The notes below the pieces were generated by a model, which ran no database searches, was not told the origin of the DNA, and saw only the letters and a list, made by a program, of their open reading frames with translations. The translations under genes were made by a program, and so were the position numbers. A stretch of 64,000 nt of DNA from an uncultured Gammaproteobacteria bacterium (GTDB lineage Bacteria > Patescibacteriota > Microgenomatia > Levybacterales > GWA1-39-11), in the NCBI GenBank assembly GCA_964472415.1, contig CAYYLC010000004.1, positions 33,110-97,109 of the forward strand. The letters are read 5' to 3'. Shown here piece after piece: positions 33,937-64,000 of the stretch (the stretch's first letter is position 1; each line of letters opens with the position of its first letter).

Positions 33937-33981
33937 AAAATTCAACTTGCGACTTTCCCGAAAATACGAAATACTTATCGT

Positions 33982-34839: not shown

Positions 34840-35030
34840 TCTTGTATTCATTCTTTGGTGCAGATTTCTATAGACTCATATTTATATAAAAAATACGCGC
34901 TGCCAATACACTCTATGAAACTTTTCCAAAAAAAACCCAATTTATCCTAATATACTACGTGGGGTCATTTATCATGAATTTATATTTTTTCCTTGACAAG
35001 ACTATATAAATGTGTCTTAAATAATATTGT

Positions 35031-36542: not shown

Positions 36543-36579
36543 AGTTGAGATTATATAAAAATTAATAAATAATAAAAAT

Positions 36580-37563
36580 ATGAAACATCCTGCTCAAGCA
36601 AAATATTTTATAAAAATAACACTCCCCGCAATCCTTATTTCCTTCTTCTTCGTGGCTCTCGCTCAGATCGTATTCGCACAAGAAGCACCTCAAAGAAGCA
36701 TCACAATATCTCCGCCAACCATTGAGCATACTCTTATCCCAGGAGAACGTGCTGAAGGGGTTCTCAAAGTTACAAATGGAGGAAATACTGACCTCACATT
36801 CCAGGCAAATATTCATGACTTTATCGTAGAAGATAAGATTGGAACTCCAAATCTTCTTGCTGATGAAACCTTAACTGAAAAATATTCTGCTGCCACTTGG
36901 CTTGCAGTGACGCCAAATTCCTTCACTGTTCCAGCAGGAACTACGAAGGAGCTAAGCTATTTTCTTCAGGTGCCAGCTGATGCTGCACCAGGCGGAAGAT
37001 ACGCTGCAGTAGTCTATGAGCCAGTTAATATTCTAGATGTTGAAGGGACCGGTGCTGGAGTAAACACCCAATCACTTTCACTCTTTTACATAACTATTGA
37101 TGGACCAATCACAGAAGATGCTGAAGTTGTAAATTTTTCTATTCCAGGATTTTCTGAATATCCTCCTGTAACTGTTTCTACAGAAATTAAAAATAATGGT
37201 CCGCTTCATATTAAACCAAGCGGAAGTATTATTATCCGGAATATGTTTGGCAAAGAAATCGCACGACATGAATTCACTGGCGGAAACATCTTCCCAGAGG
37301 CAACACTCCTGTATGAAAATGAGTTTTTCTCAGATTCAAAGATTCGCGTTGGGCGCTATACGGCAGAACTTTCCACAGCATTTGGTCGCGATCTCAATAT
37401 CCCCCTTGAAGCAACCGCATCATTCATCATCTTCCCTTGGAAAATTGCAGCAGGAATCGCACTTCTTATCGCAATCCTCGTAGTCACAGTTGTGCTCATA
37501 AGAAATAAAAAAACACCTAAAAATCCTCGACCCGAAGCGACGCCTCAACCAACCATAAAATAG
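36580..37563 (+). CDS. DUF916/DUF3324-like cell-surface protein with C-terminal TM anchor (CscA-like)
   Basis: Signal peptide, 'ITISPPTIEHTLIPGERAEGVLKVTNGGNTDLTF' (DUF916-like pattern), a later 'IIIRNMFGKEIARHEF' (DUF3324-like), a C-terminal TM helix and a basic tail. Confidence 0.45.
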   Translation: MKHPAQAKYFIKITLPAILISFFFVALAQIVFAQEAPQRSITISPPTIEHTLIPGERAEGVLKVTNGGNTDLTFQANIHDFIVEDKIGTPNLLADETLTEKYSAATWLAVTPNSFTVPAGTTKELSYFLQVPADAAPGGRYAAVVYEPVNILDVEGTGAGVNTQSLSLFYITIDGPITEDAEVVNFSIPGFSEYPPVTVSTEIKNNGPLHIKPSGSIIIRNMFGKEIARHEFTGGNIFPEATLLYENEFFSDSKIRVGRYTAELSTAFGRDLNIPLEATASFIIFPWKIAAGIALLIAILVVTVVLIRNKKTPKNPRPEATPQPTIK

Positions 37564-37572
37564 GGAAATAGT

Positions 37573-39051
37573 TTGACAGAAGATTTTATTTCTGCGCACA
37601 ATAATACAATGAAGATAATTTTTGTACTTATGATATCCGCAATTCTCTTTTTTGTAAAAATCTCTCATGCGAATGCGGCAGACCTTATCAATACTCGTGA
37701 CACACTCTCAACTTCTCGCCCATCAGCAGCTTCTCCTTTTACCAGTAATGCAGCCTCTAATGACCGGACTATTACAATTTTGAATAACGGATCGTTCTAT
37801 CTTGCATCAGATTCTGCACAAATAATCCGACACTCAACAGGCACAATTCTCGCAACTGATATTCCTATATCTTCTCAATCTGCGGGGCTTTCTACTATCT
37901 ATCTCGGAGATGATATCGGTACGAATACAACTTCAGGAGATGATATATTGCTCGTTCCAATTACCTCAACTCATACCATACGATTTACTACTGCCTCAGA
38001 AATCCCCGCTGGTGGAGATATACTCCTTACATTTCCGGGAGCAGCGAATAACTCTGCTTCTCCTTCTGCAACTACGTTTGCCTTTAATGGGCTAAATAGC
38101 ACTGGTGGACTTCCAGGAGGAATTTCTAGTCATAACATTTCATGTAATACAAATTCCTTTGTTTTTTCTCCACAAATCATGTGTGAAACAACAGGCTCAG
38201 TTCCGGCTGGCACTACAATAACTATTCTTATTGGCTGCACTGCACAGTCCGGTGGAAATTGTACGACTCAATCTCCGACACTCATCAATCCAACAAAGAC
38301 TACAACCACTGGAACCGCAGATATCTGGAAAATATTTATCCAGACCCGAGATGCAACAGACATAGAACTCGACTCTGCAACCGTTGCAATCGGCACAATA
38401 GATTCTGTTACTGTTCGTGCGTCTATTGATCCCTCTCTTACCTTTGCAATTACAGGAATCGGAAATGGTTCAGCAGTTAACCTTGGAAACACGACCGGAT
38501 GCTTGCAAACGGAAATTACCAATTCGGGCCTCAATTCAACCGCAACTGAAATAAATCTTGGACTCCTTGCAGATACTCCATCAGGAATTGATGTAAGAGT
38601 AGGAAATATTGCAGCACAACGAATCAATATTAGCACCAATGCTGCGAATGGCTATACGCTATCAGCAACATCATCCGGTCAACTTATCAATCCTACCACT
38701 GGATTTTTCCTCGCATCTTCTACCACTCCAACCGCATTCCCTTCAAATAGTTCAGATTGGTTCGGTATCCATCCGTGTGGACTTGATGTAACTACTGCCA
38801 CGTGGAATTCTACTGCAAGTACTAGCTGCAATACGTATATTTCGGGTTCAACAGATCCGATTTGTCTGTATGCGTGGCCTACACAGAGTGCACCACTTAC
38901 TCTTGCATCAGATGCAGTAGGACCTATTGGTAACTCACTTGTTACTGGAAATGGAGTAATTTCTGTTGCGTACGCCGCGTCTACTGATGCAGGCGTTCCC
39001 CCAGGAAGTTATTCTACAGTTATCACCTATACTGCAACTCCAGTCTTCTAG
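37573..39051 (+). CDS. secreted S/T-rich surface protein with WxL-like C-terminal domain, paralog A'
   Basis: Same architecture as 35031..36542. The 3' region contains 138 identical nucleotides. Confidence 0.45.
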   Translation: MTEDFISAHNNTMKIIFVLMISAILFFVKISHANAADLINTRDTLSTSRPSAASPFTSNAASNDRTITILNNGSFYLASDSAQIIRHSTGTILATDIPISSQSAGLSTIYLGDDIGTNTTSGDDILLVPITSTHTIRFTTASEIPAGGDILLTFPGAANNSASPSATTFAFNGLNSTGGLPGGISSHNISCNTNSFVFSPQIMCETTGSVPAGTTITILIGCTAQSGGNCTTQSPTLINPTKTTTTGTADIWKIFIQTRDATDIELDSATVAIGTIDSVTVRASIDPSLTFAITGIGNGSAVNLGNTTGCLQTEITNSGLNSTATEINLGLLADTPSGIDVRVGNIAAQRINISTNAANGYTLSATSSGQLINPTTGFFLASSTTPTAFPSNSSDWFGIHPCGLDVTTATWNSTASTSCNTYISGSTDPICLYAWPTQSAPLTLASDAVGPIGNSLVTGNGVISVAYAASTDAGVPPGSYSTVITYTATPVF

Positions 39052-50019: not shown

Positions 50020-50622
50020 ATGAGCTATCTCACCAAATATATAGCGGTTATTCTCTCCTTCCTTTTCACCGGGATCATAAAAAGTAGCCCACTCGAATCC
50101 CAAATGGGTTTTATCCTCGCTGCGCTCATTATCTTTGCCATCATATACATAATAAGCCAACGAAGAAATCCTACATTTAACAAACTCTTCTCTGGCAACC
50201 CCCCTGAAATATTTTTTATTAGTAGCATCGTAATTCTTATGATAGAAGTATCGGGAGGAGCGAACTCATCACTCTACTTTTTGAGCTATTTTCTCTTGTT
50301 TGGCCTCCCCTTAATTAGCACACCTTATATGTCTCTCGCAGTGACGCTCTGCTTTATAGCATTCTATATGCCAGATCTCCTCCGAAGCTTTAACACTGAT
50401 ATAATCCTCAAGATAGGCTCATTTCTCCTCCTCCTCCCTTTATCGTATTTTCTTTCAAATGAGCTCATGAAACGCTCTCGTGAAAATGAAGACCTCAAAG
50501 ATCTTGCAGAAAAAATTGAACTCGAGGCAACAGAGTTGGAAGCAAATGAAGCTGATATGCATGAGAGGGAAAAGCTCGACGAGATCATAGAATCCGCTGA
50601 AAAAATAAAGGATCAATCATGA
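50020..50622 (+). CDS. hypothetical membrane protein with acidic coiled-coil tail
   Basis: 4 TM helices and a C-terminal E/D-rich helix. Its stop overlaps the start of the next gene (ATGA). Confidence 0.4.
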   Translation: MSYLTKYIAVILSFLFTGIIKSSPLESQMGFILAALIIFAIIYIISQRRNPTFNKLFSGNPPEIFFISSIVILMIEVSGGANSSLYFLSYFLLFGLPLISTPYMSLAVTLCFIAFYMPDLLRSFNTDIILKIGSFLLLLPLSYFLSNELMKRSRENEDLKDLAEKIELEATELEANEADMHEREKLDEIIESAEKIKDQS

Positions 50623-51377
50623 ATAGCTTATCTCGCCTTCTTATAGCCTCAGGAATTACCATTAGCAGTCTCTCTATTCTTATGATAGGAACACAAGTTT
50701 ACGCCCAACAAGGTGGTGGCAGACTCTCTAATGATCAATACATCTTACATGAGGGGAACTTCAACTATACTTCTGGAAAAGGAGCAAATGATGAATTTGA
50801 CCTCACATTTACAGGTGGCGAGATCGCTCAAGGTCAATTTTCTGGAGATAATTATACGGTATATTCAGGTTTCCAATACTATTACACGATTATCCCTTTT
50901 GAGTTTTCTGTTTCGAGTCAATTCATAGATTTTGGCCCTCTAATTCCAGGAACTCCGGTAACACGCACAAATCGCCTTACACTGTCAAATGGATCAGCAT
51001 TTGGGTATGAAGTACTTGCATATGAGAATCATGCTCTGAGAATAGACTCTACAGGCGTAGATATACCCGACACCACTTGCGACTCAGGAACGTGCTCGGA
51101 AACCACAAGCGATGAATGGGTCACAAATACTACATATGGATTCGGGTATCGATGTGAGAACATTACCGGCTCTGAATGTAATGCAGCCTTTACTCCTAAT
51201 TCTTATAAGCAATTTTCAAATCTTGAGCAAAATGAAACACCTGAGGCTGTTATGAGCGGTGATGATGTCGGAGAAGGATTTGAGGTAGAAATGATTTACA
51301 AAGTCAATGTATCTTCCACACAGCCTGCAGGGCTCTATCAAAACCACATTACCTATATCGCAACGCCAAGCATATAA
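50619..51377 (+). CDS. secreted protein with WxL-like domain (short paralog of 35031/37573 C-terminal domain)
   Basis: Signal peptide (VYA|QQ), 'FEFSVSSQFIDFGPLIPG' and a terminal 'YQNHITYIATPSI', the same C-terminal signature as the 35-39 kb paralogs. Confidence 0.4.
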   Translation: MNSLSRLLIASGITISSLSILMIGTQVYAQQGGGRLSNDQYILHEGNFNYTSGKGANDEFDLTFTGGEIAQGQFSGDNYTVYSGFQYYYTIIPFEFSVSSQFIDFGPLIPGTPVTRTNRLTLSNGSAFGYEVLAYENHALRIDSTGVDIPDTTCDSGTCSETTSDEWVTNTTYGFGYRCENITGSECNAAFTPNSYKQFSNLEQNETPEAVMSGDDVGEGFEVEMIYKVNVSSTQPAGLYQNHITYIATPSI

Positions 51378-51692: not shown

Positions 51693-52745
51693 GTGGAATA
51701 TCATAAACAATCCCACGTTTTTTTCTTTGAATTACCGTACGCAATATACGATAATATCTATATGCAAAAACATTTCCTGGTAGCATTGTTCTTATTGCTT
51801 GCTATAGCACCCACTGCAAATGCACAACAATTTCATGTTGGAATAGAGCCTACGAGTATCTATATTGACGCCACTCCACCCTCAAATGTACAAGCACCCT
51901 TCCTCCTTAAAAATCTTTCAGGGAGAAACGTCGAACTGAAGCCAAAGCTCATCCCTTTTGAACCAGACATGAATGGGAAGGTAAAACTTCTTATTAACGA
52001 AGGGCAAAACCTTGACTCAATTATCCGTGAAAGACTTACAATTATTGATGAAAATGAAGCTATTGGCTCGATACACCTTACCCCTGGAGAGACCAAACAA
52101 CTTCGCCTCTTTCTCGAACTGAAGCCGGGAGATCCTGTAGGTGACTATTATTTCAGCCTCGTTTTTATGGCTGAAGGAAATGAGCTCGACCAAACCAGCA
52201 CATCTTCAATTCCTGCTGGAATCACTACGAACGTAATGCTCTCCATTGGCCCAAAAGAGCCACCTTCAGCTTCAATACAAGAGTTTTCTACAAACTCATT
52301 CACAACCAAAGGTCCAGTCGCATTCAGCCTCAAAGTAGAAAATAATGGCAACCATCTCATCCAGCCAAAAGGCACCATTGCTATTAAAAATATGCTTGGA
52401 AAAGAAGTAGGGAGGCTCGAAATATTGCCCCAATATCTTCTTGCAAACTCAAGCCGACTCCTCATTGATTCAAATCAAGCCTCTCCTTCGGCTCAAATAG
52501 ACTCATTCATACAAGACCTAGAACTCACTCAACCTGCAGCTATATGGGGAGAGAAATTCCTTTTCGGATTCTATACTGCTGAGGCGAGACTCACATTTGA
52601 TAATAGCAATGAACCTATCTCACAAAAAACGCAGTTTCTCGCGATTCCCCTTCAAGTAATCTTTTTCCTATCGGGAGTTATTTTTATAACTTTAGGCATT
52701 CTCCTCCGCGTAAAGCTTCGAATAAGAAGAAAAAATACTCCATAA
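51693..52745 (+). CDS. DUF916/DUF3324-like cell-surface protein with C-terminal TM anchor (paralog of 36580..37563)
   Basis: 'IAIKNMLGKEVGRLEI' parallels 'IIIRNMFGKEIARHEF'. It has a signal peptide and a C-terminal TM helix plus an RIRRKNTP tail. The true start is probably the internal Met 'MQKHFLVALFLLL'. Confidence 0.4.
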   Translation: MEYHKQSHVFFFELPYAIYDNIYMQKHFLVALFLLLAIAPTANAQQFHVGIEPTSIYIDATPPSNVQAPFLLKNLSGRNVELKPKLIPFEPDMNGKVKLLINEGQNLDSIIRERLTIIDENEAIGSIHLTPGETKQLRLFLELKPGDPVGDYYFSLVFMAEGNELDQTSTSSIPAGITTNVMLSIGPKEPPSASIQEFSTNSFTTKGPVAFSLKVENNGNHLIQPKGTIAIKNMLGKEVGRLEILPQYLLANSSRLLIDSNQASPSAQIDSFIQDLELTQPAAIWGEKFLFGFYTAEARLTFDNSNEPISQKTQFLAIPLQVIFFLSGVIFITLGILLRVKLRIRRKNTP

Positions 52746-53451
52746 TATCTTAGAATAAAAATATATTCTCCCATATATTAAGAACTCTATTATAAAAATA
52801 AAGGACTATATTTTTTTTCTATATGCCACAATAAAATACGCAATAATTACCAATAGTACTCAAATACCATATCAAGAAAAGATAAATTAGTATATGATAT
52901 ATTTATCACTCTATATTCTCATTTGACAATCAATATCTTATATTATTAATTTCCCCATATTATTTCTAATTTTCATTTATAATTAGAACGTCATTATAAC
53001 TTCCAGAGTTTAAAACTGTGCGGTAATTACGTGAAAAAATTGCAAGAGGCTCAGCCGTTCCATGAAATTTCACAGCCTCTACTGTCTTTCCCCGCATAAT
53101 TGAGGCTAAAGACATGATACATGATTCTATTTGATATTGTTTGATATTATTTTTTTTCACATGCGGTAAATCGTTTGTTTACGTGCAAAGAGCGTGGAAG
53201 TCTCCTTATTTAATTTTTACGGAGTTTTCATCAGTCTCTTACCAAGTAAATGAATATATCAAAATAGATAAAACTATAAACTACAAAATAGGGTCCTGTT
53301 GACAGCTATCATGCACACATACTAACCTAGTATTAGTCCTATGTATAATCGATATAATCAGTATAATCTTCACCTCAAACAGCGGATATGCGGTAATCTT
53401 TTTGTTTTTTCAAAAAAAGATTTAATTTCCTAATTTCACACGAATTTATTT

Positions 53452-56400
53452 ATGGAATTTATTGCACTTTTCAAAGACTATCTTTCAAAGAAGAAAATAA
53501 CAAACAAGACGACTGTCAAAAACTATCTCTCTGATATTCGTCATTTTGTGAATTGGTATGAGAAATCATTTGGTATCGCCTTTTCTCCAACAGAATTTAC
53601 CGATGATATTATAAAGCTCTATGAAGGATCTTCTGGTGCTCCGATCCTGGGTGGAAATATTTCAACAGAGAACAAGCTCTCACACTCCTCCCTGAAGCGC
53701 CATCTTTCCTCATTGAGAAAGTTTGCACTATTTCTGACAGAAAATAAACAAGTAGAGAAGAATCCATTTCATCAAGGAAAGGTTAATGGACAGGACTCGA
53801 CACCTGTCGATATTTGGCATATTCAGGAATTCAAAGATTACCTGAAATTTAAGAAAGCATCCCCTCTAACAATAAAGAACTATCTCACAGATATACATTC
53901 TTTCCGGAGATGGTATGAGAACTCTCTCGGGGAGAATTCTGAAGATTTAAGCTTTCCTCGTATCAATAATACGATCGTTTCTGAATACAAAACCCGCCTC
54001 CACGAATATAAAGGTGCTGCACCACGCACAATTAACCGAAAGCTTTCTTCTCTAAGAAAATATGTTGAATTTGCCATCGGCGCATACTACATGAGTGAAA
54101 ACACACTCCATGAAACGACTGCCACAAAACCATTCCTCATCTCCGAAAATGAGGCCAAAGAAGAGAATAAGCTATCACTTACTGAGATAAAATCCCACAA
54201 AATCAATCTAAACTATTCCTCCTTTCCCCCTATCAGACTTATCCAAACTCTGATAATTCTGCCCTATCTCTTCCTTGAAGGATTTCTCGCAGCAAAAATT
54301 GCAGAACTTCTCGGAACAGTAGCACCCCTCACTCTTGCTGCACAGAAACTTACTCCAGCTCCAAAAATATCCTCAATTCCCACCAAACCTTCTGAACTTT
54401 TAAAGGTAAAAGGATATGAGAAAAAGTTCTACGCTCCCCAAGATATTTCCACGAGCAATCTCTCGTCTCCTGAAAAAATCTGGCATAAACTAAAACACAA
54501 TAGACCGAAATGGTATAAAAAATATCATAATACTCCAATAGTTCACTATATTCATTTTGCGATTCTTATCATTTTTGCTGCAGGGGTCGGAGTTGCGCTC
54601 TATAGAAACTTAGTAACTGATACAAAAAGCCCACTCTTTGCAGCCCCCACCTCTCCACCTCGAGTACTCTCCTTCCAAGGTCGGCTTACTGATAATTTGA
54701 ATAATCCCATAACCACTGCGACTGATATTCGCTTCGCGATATATGATGATATTGCAGCATCCGGGTCTGCACTGCTCTGGCAAGAAGTCCATCACGCAAC
54801 AAATCCTGACCAAGATGGAATTTTTTCTGTTTTACTCGGAACTCAAACTGCGATTCCTGATAGTGTATTTTTAGAAAATAATGACATCTATTTAGGAGTA
54901 ACGATCGAACAAACAGAAGAATTAGCACCTCGGAGAAGAATTGCATCAGTTCCCTATGCCGCAAATTCAGAAAGCCTCCAAGGAATGCGCCCCATCACTG
55001 ACACAAGCGCTGGAACCACAAACGTTGTTCTTGCACTCGATTCTTCTGGAGATCTCACAATAGGCGGAGCCGCAAATCCAACATTTTCCGCAACAGGAGG
55101 CCAATTCTCTCTTTCCGGCGATATTTTACTCCTGACAACCGAAACCGGCACAGATTCAAACATAGTACTCTCTCCTGATGGAATCGGTCAGATTGATTTG
55201 CAGAAAACGCTTGTAAATACTTCAACTAACGGAAATCTTGTCCCTGGGGGAGTAGAAGTTAATGATAAATTTGGTGTACTTGCTACAGAATCTGCAGTTG
55301 CCGCATTTATCGTGAATAATGACGGGCTTTCAGATATTTTCACTGCATCCGCATCAGGTGCAACCCGTTTTACTATAGAAAGTGATGGAACATTGATTGC
55401 TCCTAACTACAATACTGCCGGAGGAGTACTCTGGGCAAATGGAAGCGGAGAGATTAACCAATCAACAGGTGGCCTCTCTGGACAATGCCTCCAATCTACT
55501 GGGGGAACTGCTCCCACGTGGGGAGCATGTGACAGCTCGGCTGGTGGTATGTTCCAAGAGCTTGCTGGTGCGATCATACCAAACAATACAACACTTGATT
55601 TTCTCCTCGGTGGAACCGCTACCTCATCCGCCAAATTCTCGGTTCTTAACATGAATTCGGGAACACCAATCGCATCAATATCGGCAAATTTTGGTAACAA
55701 CGCAACCTACCTAACTGGAGATGGAACTCTTGCAACTACAAACCGTCGTGATCTTATCCTCGGAAACTCCTCCTCCTATAATACAACGGGGAATGTTCTT
55801 ATAAACACGAACGGAACAGGGAGAGTCGGGATTGGTACAGGAGCACCATCAACCAAACTTGATGTAAATGGATCAGGAGGCGTAGCGCTATTTGGAACTG
55901 CAAGTCTTGTTGATCAATATATCTCCCTAAGAAGTCCCTCAACGGGAGTATCATTTGGTATTGATGCAAATCTCAATGGAGGAAGCGGCGCGGGACTCAT
56001 ACAAGCAGGGACCAGCAAAGCCCTCGCGTTTGATGCAAACAATGGAACATTCGGCTCTGCCACCACGCCAGATTTATATATTGATACTACAGGGTATGTT
56101 GGGATTGGTGATGCATCACCTACTGCTCTTTTCACGGTAGGAAATGGTGACCTTTTCCAAGTTAACGCAAGCGGCGCAATTGCAGCCGCAACGGGAATAA
56201 CTTCATCTGGCACTATCACCCTTTCAAATCTTAATACAAATGGAGGAATACTATACGCAAACGGATCAGGAGTACTTACCCAAACCGGAGCTGGTACCTC
56301 TTCTCAATGTCTTCTCGGTGGCACTACTCCTACATGGGGAACATGCGCTGATGGAGCTGGCGCATTTACGATCGATGCAGCAAATGGACTAACTGTCCAG

Positions 56401-59400
56401 AATAACACAACCACAGACTTTCTGATCGGAGGGACAGCAACAAGTAGTGCGAAATTTGCATTAACAAATGTGGATTCTGGTCCTCCTACATTTACTGTAG
56501 GGAGTGGGGATCCGATATTGAAAGGGACGTATAATACGAGCGGAGGTGTTGAGGACATCTATGTATCTGGAAAATATGTGTATGTAGCGGATGGCAGCTC
56601 TGGCCTACAGATAATAGACGCATCGGATCCTTCATCTCCAACACTTGTTGGAACATACGATACAAGTGGGAATGCACTCGGGGTTCATGTATCGGGTAAA
56701 TATGCATACATCGCAGACGATACTGTAGGACTTCGAATCATCGACATCTCGGATCCTTCATCTCCAACACTTGTTGGAACATACAATACAAGTGGGAATG
56801 CTCGGAGCATTTATGTCTCAGGAAAATATGCGTATGTAGCAGACGGATTTTCTGGCCTACATATCATTGACATCTCGGATCCTTCGTCACCAACTCTTAC
56901 GGGAACATATGACACAAGTGGATACAGCTACGATGTCTATGTCTCAGGAAAATATGCGTATGTAGCAGATGATAGTGACTTGAAGATCATCGACATCTCG
57001 GATCCTTCATCTCCAACACTTGTTGGAACATACAATACAAGTGGGAATGCTCGGAGCATTTATGTCTCAGGAAAATATGCGTATGTAGGAGATCTAAGCT
57101 CTGGGATTCAGATTGTAAACATCTCGGATCCTTCGTCACCAACTCTTACAGCAGATGGTCCTGGAGGAGCTCATGATGTCTATGTCTCAGGAAAATATGC
57201 ATATGTGCCAAATGGAACGGGCGACTTTCAGCTTATTGACATCTCGGATCCTTCGTCACCAACTCTTACGGGAACATATGACACAAGTGGAGACGCTCGG
57301 AGCATTTATGTCTCAGGAAAATATGCGTATGTAGGAGATCTAAGCTCTGGTCTTCAAATTCTCGAACTCCCCGGCATAGACACTCCGACACTACATACAG
57401 GGAATATTGAAACAGGAAGTATTACCATAACTGAAAATGCAGATATAGGAAACAACCTATATGTACATAATGGACTGAATGTAGGAAATGGTGGTATTTA
57501 TTCACAGGGAGCACTCGGTATATTTTCAGGAACTTCTGGGACAAATCTTATCCAAGGAAATCCTACTGGAAAAGCACTTCTTACCTTGAATAATACCGGT
57601 GGATCTGATATCTTCACCGCCTCTGCTTCCGGTACTACTCTCTTTACCATAACGAATGCTGGAGGATTACGGCTTGGAACAGATGAAGGGACTTCTGGTG
57701 AGTGCCTGCTTTCAGGTGGTGTTGGAGCAGGTGCAAGCTGGGGATCGTGTGGCGCATCTTCCCAATGGACTACCACTGGATCTGATATTTACTACAATAC
57801 CGGGAATGTGGGAATCGGAACATCTGACATAACTGCAAAATTTGAAATATTATCCAACCTTGGCACTGGACATGCAGCATCAATTTCTGCTATAACTGCC
57901 AAATCATCACTTCTCGTCACCAATGATGGAACCGGAGATCTTATCACCGCATCTGCCTCTGGTAGCACAAAGTTCACTGTAGATAATGAGGGAAATATTT
58001 ACCTTTATGGGCAGATTATCGGTATGGGGGCTGACTTTGCTGAATATTATGAAAAAGAAGATTCTGATGAAGAATTTCTTGCAGGAAGTTTAGTATGTCT
58101 TGCAATAAACGGTACTGTTACAAATTGCAAAAATTCAGATACTACTCAGAAATTACTCGGCGTCGTATCAGACAATGCAATTATTGCAGGTAATGGAGAT
58201 AAAAAGGACGACAATAACTATGTCCTTGTAGGGCTTTTAGGACAGCTCCATGTACGGGTCACAGGAGATATACAAGCTGGAGATCCACTCACGATGTCTA
58301 ATCTTTCTGGCGTCGCAGAAAAAGCAACACAAGAAGGATTTATCATCGGATATGCCATGGAATCAAGTTCAAACACCAAAGATCGAATTATTACATCAAT
58401 TAAGTCGACGTACTACAATCCAAATCTCGCGCTCAATATCGCAGGTGACAATGCAGAAGAATTTGCTGCATCGCTCAATATAAAAAATACTGATGGAACA
58501 ATTGCTATTACTGATGTATCAGGAGCTATCATAAAACGTGCAGAGGCATTCTCACACGTCATCTCAGCAAATATAAATGCCGGAATTGTAAACGCACAAA
58601 AAGTTACGGGAAATGTTATAACAGGTACTACTGGTGCATTCCAAAGCCTTACTGCAACAACTGCAAACATCACCTCTGCCTCATTCAATTCGATTAGTAT
58701 TGGTTCAGAAAATGTTCTTATAGCAGGAACTTCTCTTCGCGACTATATCGCAGAGATCGTTGCAGAAAACATTGAAAATGTAAACTTTTCAAATGGTGAG
58801 GAAATCATTTCCCCGCTTGCCTCAATCGACCAGATAAATACGAATATTATCTCCCCACTTGCTGATGACAGTAGTGTGGAGATCGAACTGAAAAAAGATA
58901 GTATTGCGATACATAATACTGAAACTCAAGAAACCGTAGCTGAAATTGATCATGAGGGGAATGCTCGTTTTATCGGAGACATTGAAGCAAATGATGCAAC
59001 ATTTTCAGGGACACTATCAGCTGATAGAATAATCGCAGGAAATATCGATGGACTTGACGAGAAAATCTCTTCTATCGCAGGAAGCCTTGCACAGAACCAT
59101 CCTACTCCATCCTCACCTTCAGCAGATATCACTTCTACAGACGAATTTCAGGTGGGGAATCTCTATGCAGATCTTGGGATTTATTCGGAAGGATTAACGA
59201 TCCTGGGCACTACTACCACAAGTCAACTTACTGCAATGGATAGTATTGCAGTAGGGACTGGATTCGTGATAAACGAAAATTCAATCAATACATTGGGGAA
59301 AACACTTGAAATTCAACCGCTCCGTCAAGGAGCCATCAGCTTCATGGCTGGAAAAGTAATTATTGATACCGACGGAAACATGAATATCAATGGGAATCTT

Positions 59401-59934
59401 AATATTGCAGGAATTTTAAATGCTACAGAAGGAATCTTCTCAAGTATCCAAACGCATAGCCTCGCAACGAACATTATCTCTCCACTTCCAGACTCAGACT
59501 TGGTAATCCAGCTCGGAAATGATAGTAGCGCATCTACTTCGGGGAATGTACGATTCGCAAACACAAAAGGAGAAGAAGTCCTCAAAATTTCCGGTGAAGG
59601 GGACATCGTCTCATCAGGATCTGCGACATTTGAGAAGCTCAGCTTTAACTTAGTCGGTGAAGCAATTGCTAGCTCAGACACCACAGCTATCGCCACAAGC
59701 TCCGCCGGATTCGCAACTATCCAAAAAAATAGACCAGAGCTTACTATCTATAATGAAAAGATCACAAAAGATTCATTGATTTACATAACTCCGATAGGAA
59801 ACATTCAGGACAAATCCATACATCTTCTACGCCAAGTCCCTCATACAGAGGGAAGTGATGGCAGCTTTACCGTAGGAGCATCAGGAACCCCTGCAACTCA
59901 AGATATCCAATTCAACTGGCTGATTGTGAATTAA
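53452..59934 (+). CDS. giant (2160 aa) membrane protein: tandem tyrosine-recombinase core-binding-like (SAM-like) N-terminal domains, one TM helix, extracellular LVIVD-repeat beta-propeller and fibre-like C-terminal region
   Basis: Residues ~1-100 and ~120-230 each match the integrase N-terminal core-binding pattern (KNYLSDIRHFVNWY...; TIKNYLTDIHSFRRWY...TINRKLSSLRKYVEF). A TM helix 'IVHYIHFAILIIFAAGVGVALY' follows. There are at least 9 LVIVD repeats ('SGKYAYVAD...L.IIDISDPSSPTL.GTY.TSG'). Confidence 0.6.
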   Translation: MEFIALFKDYLSKKKITNKTTVKNYLSDIRHFVNWYEKSFGIAFSPTEFTDDIIKLYEGSSGAPILGGNISTENKLSHSSLKRHLSSLRKFALFLTENKQVEKNPFHQGKVNGQDSTPVDIWHIQEFKDYLKFKKASPLTIKNYLTDIHSFRRWYENSLGENSEDLSFPRINNTIVSEYKTRLHEYKGAAPRTINRKLSSLRKYVEFAIGAYYMSENTLHETTATKPFLISENEAKEENKLSLTEIKSHKINLNYSSFPPIRLIQTLIILPYLFLEGFLAAKIAELLGTVAPLTLAAQKLTPAPKISSIPTKPSELLKVKGYEKKFYAPQDISTSNLSSPEKIWHKLKHNRPKWYKKYHNTPIVHYIHFAILIIFAAGVGVALYRNLVTDTKSPLFAAPTSPPRVLSFQGRLTDNLNNPITTATDIRFAIYDDIAASGSALLWQEVHHATNPDQDGIFSVLLGTQTAIPDSVFLENNDIYLGVTIEQTEELAPRRRIASVPYAANSESLQGMRPITDTSAGTTNVVLALDSSGDLTIGGAANPTFSATGGQFSLSGDILLLTTETGTDSNIVLSPDGIGQIDLQKTLVNTSTNGNLVPGGVEVNDKFGVLATESAVAAFIVNNDGLSDIFTASASGATRFTIESDGTLIAPNYNTAGGVLWANGSGEINQSTGGLSGQCLQSTGGTAPTWGACDSSAGGMFQELAGAIIPNNTTLDFLLGGTATSSAKFSVLNMNSGTPIASISANFGNNATYLTGDGTLATTNRRDLILGNSSSYNTTGNVLINTNGTGRVGIGTGAPSTKLDVNGSGGVALFGTASLVDQYISLRSPSTGVSFGIDANLNGGSGAGLIQAGTSKALAFDANNGTFGSATTPDLYIDTTGYVGIGDASPTALFTVGNGDLFQVNASGAIAAATGITSSGTITLSNLNTNGGILYANGSGVLTQTGAGTSSQCLLGGTTPTWGTCADGAGAFTIDAANGLTVQNNTTTDFLIGGTATSSAKFALTNVDSGPPTFTVGSGDPILKGTYNTSGGVEDIYVSGKYVYVADGSSGLQIIDASDPSSPTLVGTYDTSGNALGVHVSGKYAYIADDTVGLRIIDISDPSSPTLVGTYNTSGNARSIYVSGKYAYVADGFSGLHIIDISDPSSPTLTGTYDTSGYSYDVYVSGKYAYVADDSDLKIIDISDPSSPTLVGTYNTSGNARSIYVSGKYAYVGDLSSGIQIVNISDPSSPTLTADGPGGAHDVYVSGKYAYVPNGTGDFQLIDISDPSSPTLTGTYDTSGDARSIYVSGKYAYVGDLSSGLQILELPGIDTPTLHTGNIETGSITITENADIGNNLYVHNGLNVGNGGIYSQGALGIFSGTSGTNLIQGNPTGKALLTLNNTGGSDIFTASASGTTLFTITNAGGLRLGTDEGTSGECLLSGGVGAGASWGSCGASSQWTTTGSDIYYNTGNVGIGTSDITAKFEILSNLGTGHAASISAITAKSSLLVTNDGTGDLITASASGSTKFTVDNEGNIYLYGQIIGMGADFAEYYEKEDSDEEFLAGSLVCLAINGTVTNCKNSDTTQKLLGVVSDNAIIAGNGDKKDDNNYVLVGLLGQLHVRVTGDIQAGDPLTMSNLSGVAEKATQEGFIIGYAMESSSNTKDRIITSIKSTYYNPNLALNIAGDNAEEFAASLNIKNTDGTIAITDVSGAIIKRAEAFSHVISANINAGIVNAQKVTGNVITGTTGAFQSLTATTANITSASFNSISIGSENVLIAGTSLRDYIAEIVAENIENVNFSNGEEIISPLASIDQINTNIISPLADDSSVEIELKKDSIAIHNTETQETVAEIDHEGNARFIGDIEANDATFSGTLSADRIIAGNIDGLDEKISSIAGSLAQNHPTPSSPSADITSTDEFQVGNLYADLGIYSEGLTILGTTTTSQLTAMDSIAVGTGFVINENSINTLGKTLEIQPLRQGAISFMAGKVIIDTDGNMNINGNLNIAGILNATEGIFSSIQTHSLATNIISPLPDSDLVIQLGNDSSASTSGNVRFANTKGEEVLKISGEGDIVSSGSATFEKLSFNLVGEAIASSDTTAIATSSAGFATIQKNRPELTIYNEKITKDSLIYITPIGNIQDKSIHLLRQVPHTEGSDGSFTVGASGTPATQDIQFNWLIVN

Positions 59935-61261: not shown

Positions 61262-62572
61262 ATGGAGCAACTTAAATCCATCAAACAAGAACTTATCATT
61301 GTCGGAATCGGAATCTTAGGAATATTTGCCATAATTATTGGTACTATCCCTACAAACATCAGCGCACAAGGGGAAACGAATCTCCGGGTCCCGAAAGAAC
61401 TCGTGGTTACTCCAGGAGAACATGATACTGTCTATGTTTATGAGCTCTCATTCAGGTGGAATCTTTTCACCTGGTATGGGATTGACCAAACACCAGACGA
61501 GGCGCTTGCGACAAGCACAATGGAGAACGGGACAGATCCTGAATCTGTCATCACTGCTATCTATAGCTTTGATGCAGCAACACAAAGTTGGAAAGGGTAT
61601 TTTCCCCGGATGGATCACATCCCTGGGGCAAATGATCTCGAACTCCTCGAGAAGGGAAAAGGATACTTTATCGCTATTCATGAAGTATTCGATACAAAAA
61701 ACGATACAGATATCCTCTGGGGAGTTTGGTCAAATCCAATTGAGAAAACTCCTACACCCACAGAAACCATAGCGGAAACCCCGAGTGCAACAATCACAGA
61801 AACAGTTACTCAGGAGCCGACTTCAACACCAACACCGACACCGACAAGAACAGTTACGAATACACCAACCGTAACGCCAACAATGACAGCAACAATAACG
61901 GCAACCACAACACCGACACCAAGCCCTACAAACACCGTAACACCAACACCAACACCAACACCAACACCAACACCAACTCATACTCAGGAGCCGACTTCAA
62001 CACCAACACCAACACCGACAAGAACAGTTACGAATACACCAACCGTAACGCCAACAATGACAGCAACAATAACGGCAACCACAACACCGACACCAAGCCC
62101 TACAAACACCGTAACACCAACACCAACTAATACTCAGGAGCCGACTTCAACACCAACACCGAACTGTGAACGACTTGGGGGATCTACGTATACGGGTAAC
62201 TTCATCAATGAGCCACCGGATGCGCAAGATGTTTTCGTAACTCACCGACGCCCTTGCCAAGGGGATATAGTAACAGTGCGTGCGACGTTCAGCCCCGACT
62301 CACCAATTTCCGGTATGTATTTCAGATTTGCATTGGGAGATGAGTCTGAGGGACGATCAATGTCATGCATGGGAAAATATCCTATGCAAAACGTCGGGAA
62401 TAATGTATGGGAAGCAACGGTAGCCTATACGCAAACTGCACGCTATGCATTCGGCTATCAAATAGTAGCTGCAAATCCAGAGGGCAATATTGCCTTTACA
62501 GAACTTTCAACAGGAGGTAGCGGGGGATATTTCAATTACTCTAGCTGCAAGAATCCACCGGACGCACCATAA
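61262..62572 (+). CDS. membrane-anchored secreted protein with Thr/Pro-rich tandem repeats and Cys-containing C-terminal domain
   Basis: N-terminal TM helix, then a (TPTP)n linker carrying a perfect ~49-aa duplication. The C-terminal domain has 6 Cys. Confidence 0.45.
61806..62165. repeat. intragenic tandem repeat (~150-170 bp unit, ~2.2 copies) encoding the TP-rich linker
   Basis: 'actcaggagccgacttcaacaccaacacc...caaacaccgtaacaccaacaccaac' is repeated near-identically. A third partial copy starts at ~62133. Confidence 0.7.
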
Positions 62573-62805: not shown

Positions 62806-64000
62806 CTACAAACCACTAATGCCCAATATAGTTAAGGAGTCTGAAAATATTGCTGCCACATACGCATAGCCACCTGAAACATGTACAACTTGAGGCCCAT
62901 TCATATTTGTACTGTCAGTATATGAGTCCTTAACTACTGGACTAGCAGGATTTGTAATATCTATAAGGATGAGGCTATCCGAACTGCTACTGGCTATGTA
63001 TGCATAATTTCCAGAGGTATATATTGAAGTTACACCGCCACCAGAGCCAAAATTTGAAGAAGGGATTTCAGATACTTTTACAGGACTTGTAGGGTTTGAG
63101 ATGTCTGCAATGATAAAGTCCCCAACAAGATATTCTCCTAAATACAAATAGTTCCCATCTATATGAAGATTTTGAAATCCAAGACCAATTGAAGGCATGG
63201 CATCTGCTGACACAATACTTGGTGATGCTGGATTTGAAATATCGATAATTGAAAGATTGCTACTATTCATGCTTATTACATACGCATAATTCCCTGAAAC
63301 AACTACATTGCTGGGTGCATTAAGATTTGTAGAGTCAATTACTGATCCAACAATGGTAGGATTTGCTGGGTTTGAGATGTCAATAACTACGAGAGAATCG
63401 CTGCCTTGAGCCGTCATATACGCATAATTCCCTGAAACATATACAGAATTAGCAAAATCCAAGCGTGTAGAATCGGCAACTGATCCAACAATGGTAGGAT
63501 TTGCTGGGTTTGAGATGTTAATAACTGAAAGAGAATCACTCGTTCTCCCCGCAACATACGCATAATTCCCTGAAACAGCTAAACCGTCAGGCCACAGCGT
63601 AGGGTCAGTCATTGATCCAACAATGGTAGGATTTGCTGGGTTTGAGATGTCAATAACTGAAAGAGACTGGCTATTTAAACTCGTAACATACGCATAACTC
63701 CCTGAGGCTACTACGTCATTGGCTCCATCAAGATTTGTAGAGTCGATTAATGATCCTGCAAGTACTATTTCAGCGCAGGAATTTGTAAGAGAATACGCAT
63801 TATCATCACAATCAAGCACTGGATTATTTACTATTCGAGAATAATAATTATAGTTCGTACTTATTGTATTCCGCCTTGCACCACCCTCAGGCTGTGCACC
63901 CACATACTGCTCACTGTTTGCAATATATCCATCACCGTCAGCATCAATAACCCAAATAGCGCCAGATCGCAAAGAACCTGCAGGAGACACCGTGATATAG
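62806..64000 (-). CDS. LVIVD-repeat surface protein, C-terminal part (N-terminus beyond window end)
   Basis: Repeats 'SGNYAYV...SDSL.VIDISNPANPTIVGS' (at least 7 copies). The ORF runs to the window edge. Confidence 0.5.
   Translation of the reverse strand, partial: YITVSPAGSLRSGAIWVIDADGDGYIANSEQYVGAQPEGGARRNTISTNYNYYSRIVNNPVLDCDDNAYSLTNSCAEIVLAGSLIDSTNLDGANDVVASGSYAYVTSLNSQSLSVIDISNPANPTIVGSMTDPTLWPDGLAVSGNYAYVAGRTSDSLSVINISNPANPTIVGSVADSTRLDFANSVYVSGNYAYMTAQGSDSLVVIDISNPANPTIVGSVIDSTNLNAPSNVVVSGNYAYVISMNSSNLSIIDISNPASPSIVSADAMPSIGLGFQNLHIDGNYLYLGEYLVGDFIIADISNPTSPVKVSEIPSSNFGSGGGVTSIYTSGNYAYIASSSSDSLILIDITNPASPVVKDSYTDSTNMNGPQVVHVSGGYAYVAAIFSDSLTILGISGL

What the first reader, a model, noticed from the sequence alone, without database searches (positions are those of the whole stretch)
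53452..59934. Giant membrane protein fusing cytoplasmic tandem recombinase core-binding-like domains to an extracellular LVIVD propeller
The first ~230 aa contain two consecutive copies of the fold-defining pattern of the tyrosine-recombinase N-terminal SAM-like core-binding domain:
- Copy 1: 'KNYLSDIRHFVNWYEKS...LSHSSLKRHLSSLRKFALFL'.
- Copy 2: 'TIKNYLTDIHSFRRWYENS...TINRKLSSLRKYVEFAI'.
- There is no catalytic integrase domain.

These are followed by a predicted cytoplasmic linker, a single TM helix (~residue 365) and ~1800 extracellular residues that include at least 9 LVIVD beta-propeller repeats and fibre-like G/S/T-rich repeats.

A DNA-binding-type domain tethered inside the membrane to a huge surface-exposed adhesin-like structure is an unusual architecture. 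It might couple surface contact (e.g. with a host cell) to DNA binding or regulation, or it may repurpose the SAM-like fold as a protein-interaction module.
Basis: partly seen in the sequence, partly recalled or inferred. Interest (0 to 1): 0.8.

Follow-up and report, generated by a model that had tools for sequence, protein, structure and literature searches.

The report
Membrane-anchored surface fibre with recombinase-like cytoplasmic domains
This 2160-residue protein of an uncultured CPR (Levybacteria-like) bacterium joins two DNA-recombinase 'core-binding' domains inside the cell, through one membrane helix, to a long phage-tail-fibre-like surface fibre; it belongs to a large, conserved but undescribed family encoded next to CPR pilus genes, so it may link contact at the cell surface to DNA.

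Summary

It is not a one-off. The N-terminal module, a Bdellovibrio-MAT-like domain after the TM helix, an autoproteolytic chaperone (IMC) domain and a tailspike-tip-like C-terminal β-sandwich form a frame conserved across CPR bacteria, mainly Levybacteria: up to 643 clusters at 50% identity and at least 365 genome loci. The LVIVD propeller is cargo shared only with the two closest orthologues.

The gene follows a Pam-pilin-like gene and a membrane-anchored chaperone-like gene in about 80% of loci. It is preceded by a gene-specific element of exactly three 9-bp direct repeats.

Best reading: a trimeric, N-terminally anchored surface fibre whose cytoplasmic CB domains bind DNA. The anatomy is shown; DNA binding and signalling are inferred.

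It is a new variant of known kinds (MAT fibres, ToxR-like regulators, MrpR-like ex-recombinases). Interest 0.68.

The parts
53452..59934 (+). Whole ORF, 2160 aa: CB x2, linker, TM, tail-fibre-like ectodomain
   Evidence: The exact protein is an unnamed singleton in public data.
53455..53742 (+). Core-binding (SAM-like) domain 1, aa 2-97
   Evidence: Pfam and NCBIfam; tblastn with Xer proteins E ~1e-5; four helices at pLDDT above 90; family-conserved T21 K23 N24 Y25 D28 ... S80 R83 S86 L88 R89 K90 F91.
53821..54081 (+). Core-binding (SAM-like) domain 2, aa 124-210
54082..54465 (+). Cytoplasmic linker, aa 211-338, with the 'FPPIRL' motif and a long semi-hydrophobic helix (259-300)
   Evidence: Low pLDDT at 222-250 and 304-320; helix 259-300 at pLDDT ~80. 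The helix is absent from the short members P0015 and P0020 and is not a conserved TM segment.
54466..54618 (+). Conserved basic juxtamembrane motif (KIWHKLKHNRPKWYKKYH) and TM helix, aa 339-389
   Evidence: Kyte-Doolittle 2.18 and 6 K/R before the helix; helix 362-389; motif conserved in 130 of 138 representatives; mean charge +5.5.
54637..55011 (+). β-rich 'fibre start' domain, aa ~396-520, a distant relative of the Bdellovibrio MAT N-terminal domain
   Evidence: NF053851 at E 4.7e-10 (39.5 bits, below the cutoff of 60); 49 of 56 family members hit this model and no other.
55012..56538 (+). G/S/T-rich fibre modules, aa 521-1029, with 'DIFTASASG' units and Cys-pair loops (679/693, 953/965)
   Evidence: Composition; repeats and cysteine positions; shared with orthologues.
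56539..57441 (+). Seven-bladed LVIVD β-propeller, aa ~1030-1330; lineage-specific cargo
   Evidence: PF08309 at E 1.8e-92 with 7 stretches; 7 blade cores; DNA tandem repeat of period 126/249 at 56556-57350; found only in the L001 and L003 orthologues; 0 of 138 representatives.
57934..58386 (+). Intramolecular-chaperone / autoproteolysis domain (Peptidase_G2 type), aa ~1495-1645, with the motif G-A-D1528-F-A-E1531-Y
   Evidence: PF11962 at 37.4 bits against a cutoff of 25; motif position; region found in 89 of 138 representatives; some members carry S74 instead.
58387..59673 (+). Ile-rich post-IMC fibre region, aa 1646-2074, with 'NIISPL' motifs
   Evidence: Conserved in 100 of 138 representatives; motif positions.
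59674..59931 (+). Conserved C-terminal β-sandwich, aa ~2075-2160, ending FNWLIVN; tailspike/tail-fibre-tip-like
53343..53368 (+). Three direct 9-bp repeats, GTATAATCGATATAATCAGTATAATC, 84 nt upstream of the ATG; a gene-specific conserved cis-element
   Evidence: Unique in the window. On the coding strand upstream of the orthologous gene in 64 of 79 loci (400-nt window) and 70 of 81 loci (wider window). Exactly three units in 63 of 70. No Rfam hit; not a stable RNA fold.
53285..53328 (+). Conserved promoter-like box: family consensus TACTCTAGGnCCTTGACA (TTGACA at 53299-53304), then a weak -10-like hexamer 18 nt downstream (TAACCT)
   Evidence: Alignment of upstream regions; regex hit in 35 of 79 loci; not called by the simple sigma-70 scan.
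50619..51377 (+). Syntenic partner 1: secreted 252-aa Pam-pilin-like (PamT-like) protein
   Evidence: NF058579 PamT at E 1.4e-8, full length but below the cutoff. 69 of 76 orthologues hit CPR_Pam_pilin_C and 42 hit PamT. Upstream of the fibre gene in 61-63 of 80 loci.
51693..52745 (+). Syntenic partner 2: chaperone-like protein with a signal peptide and a C-terminal TM anchor (public gene call starts at 51762, 327 aa)
   Evidence: Upstream in 68-69 of 80 loci. The family profile hits the solved E. faecium WxLIP1 at E 5.6e-5. Same layout as the PamC/PamD chaperones of the preprint.

Best explanation
The gene encodes a cell-surface fibre of a CPR (Levybacteria-type) bacterium.

Shown by tool results:
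- The polypeptide starts in the cytoplasm with two tyrosine-recombinase core-binding domains and has no catalytic domain.
- It crosses the membrane once (N-in).
- Outside the cell it continues as a phage-tail-fibre/MAT-like fibre: a MAT-N-like base domain, G/S/T-rich fibre modules with disulfide-type Cys pairs, a 7-bladed LVIVD propeller as variable adhesive cargo, an intramolecular-chaperone/autoprotease domain, an Ile-rich shaft and a conserved tailspike-tip-like β-sandwich.
- It is the conserved last gene of a cluster that also encodes a Pam-type pilin-like protein and a membrane-anchored chaperone-like protein.

Inferred:
- The fibre is a homotrimer, because IMC domains and MAT fibres are trimer-specific.
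- It serves host or prey contact in an episymbiotic lifestyle.
- The cytoplasmic tandem CB modules, three per trimer, retain the ancestral activity of the fold and bind DNA. The protein would then be a membrane-tethered DNA binder (ToxR-like logic, built from an MrpR/SroF-like ex-recombinase domain) that ties the fibre base to the chromosome or regulates transcription.
- The most obvious candidate target is the gene-specific set of exactly three 9-bp direct repeats just downstream of its own promoter-like box.

For: No catalytic domain.

Topology:
- One strong TM helix with a basic juxtamembrane segment (+5.5 on average).
- K+R is 14.8% in aa 1-365 against 3-5% in the ectodomain, and all 8 Cys lie in the ectodomain as 4 close pairs.
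- The second hydrophobic helix is absent from short members and weakly hydrophobic across the family.

Fibre nature: Bdello_MAT_N in 49 of 56 members; Peptidase_G2 above the gathering score; the C-terminal domain fold matches tailspike and tail-fibre tips; MAT precedent (PMC10769870).

Family and conservation.

Pam context. The preprint 10.64898/2026.03.03.709456 states that a 'tail fibre-like protein' co-localises with the pam operon.

DNA-binding inference:
- The invariant residues sit in the same T..Y..D and R..S(S/A)LR helix motifs that characterise canonical recombinase CB domains.
- Both CB domains are net basic across the family (+4.8 and +3.9), with conserved K/R clusters.
- Fold hits include the DNA-bound ex-recombinase regulators SroF, MrpR, Ndc10 and ALOG (MrpR abstract PMC10516654).

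Candidate target.
Against: - No experiment or calculation here shows DNA binding, trimerisation, surface exposure or autocleavage.
- Topology rests on hydropathy, charge and cysteine arguments; no dedicated predictor was available.
- In this particular protein the helix at 262-284 reaches Kyte-Doolittle 1.82, so a two-TM topology is not strictly excluded.
- The triple repeat is made of TATAAT-like units, so it could simply be stacked -10 elements or an unstructured 5'UTR site for another factor. Its link to the CB module is only a coincidence of numbers (three repeats, presumed trimer).
- The Pam, WxLIP and MAT-N matches are all below the curated family cutoffs.
- The C-terminal domain shows no sequence-profile similarity to the Pam pilin-like or chaperone-like partners, so a physical link between fibre and pilus proteins is unsupported.
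- Identity with the preprint's 'tail fibre-like protein' could not be verified. No Mycosynbacter or other cultured-strain homologue was found.
Confidence: 0.5

Rival explanations
1. Same surface fibre, but the cytoplasmic tandem CB module no longer binds DNA. It would be a protein-interaction or structural hub at the fibre base, for example docking to a cytoplasmic partner or the cytoskeleton, helping three chains assemble, or acting as a bulky stop-transfer anchor that keeps the N-terminus in the cell.
For: - The module is followed by a conserved 'FPPxRLxQK' motif and a long helix that could mediate oligomerisation or membrane association.
- Members with only one CB domain exist (P0064, P0079, P0114), so a fixed two-site DNA geometry is not required.
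- Nothing here demonstrates DNA binding.
Against: - The residues under strongest selection are the recombinase-type helix motifs, together with conserved K/R clusters. That is more typical of a retained nucleic-acid surface.
- A mere anchor would not need roughly 230 conserved residues in hundreds of lineages.
Confidence: 0.3
2. Two-TM topology: the helix at 262-284 also spans the membrane, so the CB domains lie outside the cell at the base of the fibre. There they would bind extracellular DNA, for example for the nucleotide scavenging or DNA uptake on which CPR bacteria depend.
For: - The 262-284 segment reaches Kyte-Doolittle 1.82 in this protein.
- The 285-364 loop is very basic and would satisfy the positive-inside rule as a cytoplasmic loop.
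- comEC and neighbouring genes lie 8 kb upstream and are syntenic.
Against: - There is no signal peptide, and the N-terminal 260 residues are highly basic and folded, which is unfavourable for N-tail translocation.
- The helix is missing from short family members that keep both the CB module and the C-terminal domain (P0015, P0020).
- Across 107 members the mean maximum hydropathy of that region is 1.31, against 1.95 for the real TM helix. Only 7% exceed 1.9, and almost all carry charged residues in it.
- There are no cysteines in aa 1-390, while the ectodomain has 4 Cys pairs.
- The comEC synteny is explained by general conservation of this chromosomal region; leuS is syntenic too.
Confidence: 0.05
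3. Not a functional unit: an integrase remnant fused by mis-assembly or frameshift to a surface protein, or a piece of a prophage or mobile element (integrase fragment plus tail fibre).
For: - Public pipelines label relatives 'site-specific integrase, partial'.
- The ectodomain resembles phage tail fibres.
- PHROGs places aa 124-247 in the integrase family.
Against: [quoted passage not shown]
- The locus is fixed next to leuS and the Pam-like genes (52-69 of 80 loci).
- No phage structural genes or catalytic integrase lie nearby.
- The exact sequence occurs on two public contigs.
Confidence: 0.02

Closest known systems
Bdellovibrio bacteriovorus MAT (mosaic adhesive trimer) chimeric fibre proteins (PMC10769870)
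   Same: A conserved β-rich domain sits directly after the export signal; the post-TM domain here hits NF053851 in 49 of 56 family members. Both have a long fibre, swappable adhesive modules and an autoproteolytic chaperone domain (S74 in MATs; G2 here, S74 in some relatives). Both occur in bacteria that attach to other bacteria.
   Different: MATs have a cleavable signal peptide and no cytoplasmic part. Here a ~360-aa cytoplasmic region with two CB domains plus a TM helix replaces it. In this family the IMC domain lies mid-protein and is followed by ~500 conserved residues and a conserved tip domain. The matches are below the curated cutoff.
Tyrosine recombinases (XerC/XerD, phage integrases): the N-terminal core-binding domain
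   Different: There is no catalytic domain, the CB domain is duplicated in tandem, and it is tethered to the membrane. It cannot be a recombinase.
Ex-recombinase DNA-binding regulators: SPβ MrpR (PMC10516654), phi3T SroF (PDB 9rd5), yeast Ndc10, plant ALOG domain
   Same: Recombinase-derived folds that have lost recombination and act as DNA binders or repressors at repeated elements. They appear among the fold hits.
   Different: Those proteins are soluble, and MrpR and SroF keep the whole (inactive) recombinase fold. Here only the CB domain is kept, in two copies, fused to a membrane anchor and a giant ectodomain.
ToxR/CadC/TcpP-type membrane-bound one-component regulators (my own knowledge of these families)
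   Same: The logic of the layout: an N-terminal cytoplasmic DNA-binding domain, a single TM helix and an extracytoplasmic domain.
   Different: ToxR-type proteins use a winged-helix OmpR-like domain and small periplasmic sensor domains. Here the domain is a tandem CB and the 'sensor' is a 1770-aa fibre. DNA binding is unproven.
Pam pili of CPR bacteria (bioRxiv 10.64898/2026.03.03.709456) and Firmicute WxL/WxLIP clusters (PMC10599100)
   Same: The two genes upstream are a Pam-pilin-like protein and a membrane-anchored, two-domain chaperone-like protein related to WxLIP. The preprint reports a 'tail fibre-like protein' that consistently co-localises with pam operons.
   Different: The giant protein is neither a pilin nor a chaperone, and shows no profile similarity to either. 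The preprint does not describe its CB domains or TM anchor. Identity with that protein is unverified.

Membership tests
Tyrosine recombinase / phage integrase family | N-terminal core-binding (SAM-like) domain | tested here: met
Tyrosine recombinase / phage integrase family | C-terminal catalytic domain (PF00589, with the R-K-H-R-H/W-Y active site) | tested here: not met
   No PF00589 hit. The XerC model scores 71-77 bits against a cutoff of 335 and aligns only model positions 2-98. tblastn with 14 Xer proteins finds no catalytic-domain match anywhere in the window. Not a member.
MAT (mosaic adhesive trimer) fibre superfamily | Conserved ~130-aa β-rich N-terminal domain directly after the export signal | tested here: inconclusive
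   NF053851 at E 4.7e-10, 39.5 bits against a cutoff of 60, covering model positions 11-78 of 162. 49 of 56 family members hit it and nothing else. Homology is likely; membership is below threshold.
MAT (mosaic adhesive trimer) fibre superfamily | Cleavable signal peptide / fully secreted protein | tested here: not met
   The N-terminus is a 360-aa basic cytoplasmic region. The only export signal is the internal TM helix at 362-389.
MAT (mosaic adhesive trimer) fibre superfamily | Intertwined trimeric β-helix/prism shaft | not tested
Peptidase_G2 / intramolecular chaperone autoprocessing domain | Domain match above the curated score; acidic cleavage motif | tested here: met
   PF11962 at 37.4 bits against a cutoff of 25. 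The G-A-D1528-F-A-E1531-Y motif is present, and xD[FLIVY]AE is found in 77 of 138 representatives. Self-cleavage itself is not testable here.
LVIVD β-propeller repeat proteins | Tandem LVIVD repeats | tested here: met
   PF08309 at E 1.8e-92, with 7 repeats of ~41-42 aa.
Pam pilus system (CPR) | Being a Pam pilin (truncated Ig-like C-domain) or a PamC/D chaperone | tested here: not met
   The giant protein has no hit to the Pam models, and its C-terminal domain shows no hhalign similarity to the pilin-like or chaperone-like families. It is a neighbour of the system, not a component by homology.
Pam pilus system (CPR) | Genomic association with Pam pilin and membrane-anchored chaperone genes | tested here: met
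   A PamT-like gene lies upstream in 61-63 of 80 loci and a chaperone-like gene in 68-69 of 80. 69 of 76 pilin-like proteins hit CPR_Pam_pilin_C, below the cutoff. The chaperone-like profile hits WxLIP1 at E 5.6e-5. A PapD-like fold for the chaperone was not tested.
ToxR-like membrane-bound transcription regulators (works-like comparison only) | Cytoplasmic N-terminal DNA-binding domain + single TM + extracytoplasmic domain | tested here: met
   The layout is met, but the DNA-binding domain is a different fold (CB, not winged helix), so this is an analogy and not membership.
ToxR-like membrane-bound transcription regulators (works-like comparison only) | Sequence-specific binding to promoter DNA while membrane-tethered | not testable with these tools
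   Only a candidate site exists: the triple 9-bp repeat at 53343-53368, conserved in 70 of 81 loci.

The most novel reading that the evidence does not exclude
The protein is a contact- or force-sensing transmembrane transcription factor of a new type. It would be a trimeric surface fibre whose three cytoplasmic tandem core-binding modules sit on the exactly-three 9-bp direct repeats just downstream of its own promoter. Engagement of the fibre with a host cell, or IMC or intramembrane cleavage, would change or release that DNA binding. Attachment of an ultrasmall episymbiont would thereby be wired directly to gene expression, without a two-component system.
Probability: 0.15. Interest if true: 0.9.

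Novelty: new variant of a known kind. Interest (0 to 1): 0.68.

Why it matters
CPR/Patescibacteria make up a large share of bacterial diversity and appear to live attached to other microbes, yet how they recognise hosts and turn contact into a cellular response is largely unknown.

This family is large, conserved at a fixed locus beside the newly discovered Pam pilus genes, and currently mislabelled 'site-specific integrase, partial'. If the cytoplasmic CB modules bind DNA, it would be the first example of a recombinase core-binding domain used as a membrane-tethered DNA binder, and a direct physical link between a surface adhesin and the chromosome.

Even if they do not, the work defines a modular adhesin scaffold: constant ends and swappable cargo such as the LVIVD propeller. 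That scaffold is likely to determine host range. The work also corrects an annotation error that propagates through hundreds of genomes.

The conserved triple-repeat element gives a concrete, testable target.

Tried and rejected
1. Split recombinase. I looked for a separately encoded catalytic domain. tblastn with 14 Xer proteins found none in the window.

2. Second TM helix at 262-284. Rejected as a conserved feature, from the short homologues and family hydropathy.

3. The C-terminal domain as a Pam-pilin/WxL-type domain, or as a free donor strand for the PamT-like protein. hhalign found no similarity, and AF2 packs the FNWLIVN strand into the β-sandwich. Multimer modelling was not possible, so the question is not settled.

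4. TGCGGTAA, present three times upstream (5 in the window against 0.9 expected). It is not conserved across loci beyond close relatives, and its strand is inconsistent. A local curiosity.

5. The leader as a structured RNA or riboswitch. No Rfam hit; folding z-score +0.65. My fold_alignment attempt used poorly registered coordinates and is uninformative.

6. The ATP-synthase neighbourhood reported for pam operons. The 32.7-39 kb ORFs have no family hits and are not ATP synthase.

7. Single-sequence PDB searches of the N-terminus and the ectodomain returned nothing. PHROGs gave only 'integrase' for aa 124-247 and two unknown-function families.

8. NCBIfam found no PamC/PamD-type hit for the chaperone-like family.

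9. The AFDB fold library was not available.

10. Searches for a link to cultured Saccharibacteria or Mycosynbacter found no named homologue. Five literature searches aimed at the CB-TM-fibre architecture itself found no description of it.

Full report
**1. The observation**

ORF 53452-59934 (+) is intact: 2160 aa, with an ATG start and an N-terminus typical of its relatives.

Pfam finds Phage_int_SAM_1/4/5 in two stretches. For aa 1-360 the score is 68.7 bits against a gathering score of 22.3 (E 5.3e-19). It also finds LVIVD (E 1.8e-92, 7 stretches) and Peptidase_G2/IMC (37.4 bits against 25).

NCBIfam aligns aa 126-226 to positions 2-98 of the XerC model, at 71-77 bits against a cutoff of 335. 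Only the N-terminal domain of a recombinase is present. Genuine Xer proteins used as tblastn queries hit copy 2 (E 1e-13 to 1e-16) and copy 1 (E ~1e-5), and hit no catalytic domain anywhere in the 64 kb.

There are seven blades, with cores at 1038, 1080, 1122, 1164, 1205, 1245 and 1287. They are encoded by a DNA tandem array of period 126/249.

**2. The cytoplasmic module**

I built an alignment of 39 homologues (A1). AlphaFold2 on it gives two four-helix units (2-97 and 124-210) at pLDDT above 90, a disordered linker, a long helix (259-300, pLDDT ~80), two short juxtamembrane helices and the TM helix (362-389). pTM is only 0.39, so the arrangement between domains is uncertain.

The family's invariant residues (T140 K142 N143 Y144 D147; R196 S199 S200 R202, with equivalents in copy 1) fall in the T..Y..D and R..SxLR helix motifs shared with canonical recombinases. 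Both domains are net basic across the family, at +4.8 and +3.9.

**3. Topology**

There is one strong hydrophobic helix (Kyte-Doolittle 2.18), preceded by KLKHNRPKWYKKYH. That juxtamembrane segment averages +5.5 across the family. Residues 1-365 contain 14.8% K+R, against 3-5% in the ectodomain. All eight cysteines are in the ectodomain, as four close pairs. There is no N-terminal signal peptide.

The weaker hydrophobic helix at 262-284 (Kyte-Doolittle 1.82) is the only threat to an N-in model. It is absent from the short family members P0015 and P0020, which keep both the CB module and the C-terminal domain. In 107 relatives the maximum hydropathy of that region averages 1.31, against 1.95 for the true TM helix, and the segment almost always contains charged residues.

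I take N-in as about 85-90% likely. No dedicated topology predictor was available.

**4. The ectodomain**

- **Fibre start.** A β-rich domain (~396-520) directly follows the TM helix. It matches the N-terminal domain model of Bdellovibrio MAT fibres (E 4.7e-10). That model is hit in 49 of 56 family members, and it is the only family hit. All scores are below the curated cutoff.
- **Fibre modules.** G/S/T-rich modules with repeated 'DIFTASASG' units and Cys-pair loops come next.
- **LVIVD propeller.** Seven blades, as described in section 1.
- **IMC domain.** A Peptidase_G2-type intramolecular chaperone domain carries G-A-D1528-F-A-E1531-Y.
- **Shaft.** An Ile-rich region follows.

Trimerisation is an inference. 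It rests on what IMC domains and MAT fibres do (PMC10769870).

**5. A family, not a one-off**

The N-terminal 400 aa retrieve about 63 clusters that have SAM-like domains and no catalytic domain. Those with a source name are mostly labelled 'site-specific integrase, partial', from Levybacteria or Patescibacteria.

An exhaustive profile search of 1.84 billion representatives gives 643 proteins at E <= 1e-30. Most of the best 150 match the full N-terminal profile, and they range from about 400 to 6048 aa.

Local phmmer on the 138 newly retrieved representatives finds:

| Segment | Representatives with it (of 138) |
|---|---|
| CB1 | 137 |
| CB2 | 138 |
| Juxtamembrane/TM motif | 130 |
| Fibre start | 138 |
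| IMC | 89 |
| Post-IMC region | 100 |
| C-terminal domain | 118 |
| LVIVD | 0 |

The ends are therefore constant and the middle is variable. LVIVD occurs only in the two closest orthologues, L001 and L003. Minimal members of 350-420 aa consist of CB, TM and the C-terminal domain only. Single-CB variants exist. Some members use an S74 chaperone domain instead of G2.

In species-representative genomes, at least 365 loci were confirmed. The informative organism names are mostly Candidatus Levyibacteriota, with some Patescibacteria, Paceibacterota and Saccharimonadales labels. The exact protein is an unnamed singleton in public data.

**6. Genomic context**

The two same-strand genes upstream have homologues upstream of the fibre gene in 61-63 and 68-69 of 80 loci. 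Divergent leuS is found in 52. This is a fixed chromosomal locus, not a mobile element.

- **The 252-aa secreted protein.** It aligns over its full length to NCBIfam 'CPR-type pilus protein PamT' (E 1.4e-8, below the cutoff). Of 76 orthologues and paralogues, 69 hit CPR_Pam_pilin_C and 42 hit PamT.
- **The 350-aa protein.** It has a signal peptide and a C-terminal TM anchor. Its family profile hits the solved E. faecium WxL-interacting protein WxLIP1 (E 5.6e-5), a two-Ig-domain, membrane-anchored partner of WxL surface proteins (PMC10599100).
- **Expanded loci.** About 16 loci also carry a ~480-aa two-domain pilin-like gene and a second chaperone-like gene.

This mirrors the pam operon of Ca. 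Mycosynbacter amalyticus, which has donor-strand-exchange pili, a PamT tip pilin, and PamC/D chaperones with C-terminal TM helices. The authors of that work remark that 'a tail fibre-like protein' consistently co-localises with the operon. They do not characterise it and never mention integrase-like domains (bioRxiv 10.64898/2026.03.03.709456).

I could not verify that their protein is a member of this family. The C-terminal domain shows no profile similarity to the pilin-like or chaperone-like proteins.

**7. A gene-specific upstream element**

The 706-bp intergenic region contains a family-conserved block, in this order:
- A TACTCTAGGnCCTTGACA box (TTGACA at 53299-53304).
- A weak -10-like hexamer.
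- Three direct 9-bp repeats at 53343-53368 (family consensus ATAATCCGTATAATCCGTATAATCTCGAGGCTA).
- A variable leader.

The triple repeat is unique in the window. It lies on the coding strand upstream of the orthologous gene in 64 of 79 loci (400-nt window) and in 70 of 81 loci (wider window). Almost all other hits in 1.22 Mb are also just upstream of the same gene. Exactly three units are present in 63 of 70 loci, and never more than three.

TTTTCAC[AG] boxes are about 25-fold enriched in the same regions. There is no Rfam match, and the leader does not fold better than shuffled sequences (z +0.65). A DNA-level or unstructured-RNA role is therefore more likely than a riboswitch.

**8. Mechanism**

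*Shown:* the domain anatomy, family conservation, synteny and the cis-element.

*Inferred:*
- The ectodomain is a trimeric, surface-exposed adhesive fibre. Its variable middle (here a 7-bladed propeller) provides binding specificity, and its constant tip and base serve assembly or a conserved partner.
- The IMC domain self-cleaves after trimerisation. Because it lies mid-protein, that would separate the membrane-anchored part (up to about residue 1527) from the C-terminal ~630 residues.
- The three cytoplasmic tandem-CB modules bind DNA. The support is the retained recombinase-type conserved helices, the family-wide basic charge, and solved precedents in which recombinase-derived folds act as non-recombining DNA binders: MrpR (PMC10516654), and SroF, Ndc10 and ALOG.

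The triple repeat is the obvious candidate target. That would give a ToxR-like, membrane-tethered autoregulator or a nucleoid tether. The match between three repeats and a presumed trimer is suggestive only.

The main rival is that the CB module has become a protein-interaction or assembly hub.

**9. Verdict**

The finding is real and its architectural reading is right. The LVIVD propeller is incidental. The true subject is a large, unannotated CPR family that combines a MAT-like fibre with a cytoplasmic tandem recombinase core-binding module, beside Pam-pilus-like genes.

It is not a recombinase, because the defining catalytic domain is absent. It is not a canonical MAT protein, because it has no signal peptide and its matches are sub-threshold. 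It is not a Pam component by homology.

I rate it a new variant of known kinds, with interest 0.68. The most novel reading is a contact-sensing trimeric transmembrane transcription factor, at about 15% probability.

Noticed in passing
window 53343-53368 (also 53285-53328): Three direct 9-bp repeats (GTATAATC-GATATAATC-AGTATAATC) lie downstream of a conserved TTGACA box. The element is specific to the upstream region of this gene family: present in 70 of 81 loci, with exactly three units in 63 of 70. Its function is unknown.
   Followed up: yes
window 53019-53026, 53162-53169, 53389-53396: TGCGGTAA occurs three times on the coding strand within 380 bp upstream of the gene (5 in the window against 0.9 expected). 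It is conserved only in the closest relatives (L001, L008), not across the family.
   Followed up: yes
window 53068, 53155, 53434; upstream regions of L001-L080: TTT(T)CAC[AG] boxes recur upstream of the fibre gene in 58-64 loci, about 25-fold enriched over the rest of the loci. They may be a second regulatory motif.
   Followed up: partly
window 62806-64000 (-), runs off the window: A second LVIVD-propeller protein (6 repeats seen in the window). The public gene call gives 1057 aa, with a faint purple-acid-phosphatase N-domain hit. Homologues occur only in L001 and L003. LVIVD modules therefore appear to be a local speciality of this lineage.
   Followed up: partly
window 50020-50622 (+): A 200-aa polytopic membrane protein with an acidic coiled-coil tail. 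Its stop overlaps the start of the PamT-like gene, so they are probably in one operon. Homologues are present in 40 of 80 loci. No family assignment.
   Followed up: partly
L005, L007, L015, L017, L020, L024, L026, L028, L029, L049, L058, L059, L064, L067, L071 (between the chaperone-like gene and the fibre gene): Expanded versions of the cluster carry a ~480-aa two-domain pilin-like protein (PamA/B-like, with the same C-terminal ...Y.n.ITY..T..F motif) and a second membrane-anchored chaperone-like protein.
   Followed up: partly
alignment A2 (window 51693-52745 and orthologues): The CPR chaperone-like family shows sequence-profile similarity to Firmicute WxLIP (DUF916/DUF3324; PDB 9i25, 9i1y; E 5.6e-5). 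This hints that CPR Pam clusters and Gram-positive WxL surface-protein clusters are evolutionarily related.
   Followed up: partly
window 61262-62572 (+): A 436-aa secreted protein with a duplicated Thr/Pro-rich block (…[48 protein letters not shown]… twice). No family hits.
   Followed up: no
window 32722-39051 (+): Five consecutive same-strand ORFs (404, 285, 503, 327 and 492 aa) have no NCBIfam hit. I had suspected ATP synthase because of the published pam neighbourhood, but they are not.
   Followed up: partly
window 28997-29641 (+): A 214-aa ORF with a sub-threshold match to REP-associated tyrosine transposase (E 3e-12).
   Followed up: no
window 14138-17839 (+): Another large (1233-aa) probable surface protein, with Big_13 / Ig-like domain hits.
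   Followed up: no
window 1-64000: GC skew is negative in 31 of the 32 2-kb bins across the window, and cumulative skew falls steadily to -4.4, regardless of gene orientation. This is consistent with a single replichore or a strong strand-composition bias.
   Followed up: no
PDB 9i5v chain 14 (not in the window): A 401-aa chain deposited as 'ribosome-associated translation inhibitor RaiA' has an N-terminal ~100 residues that match the family's CB-domain profile (E 1.9e-10). It is probably a recombinase-like N-terminus on that entry's sequence.
   Followed up: no
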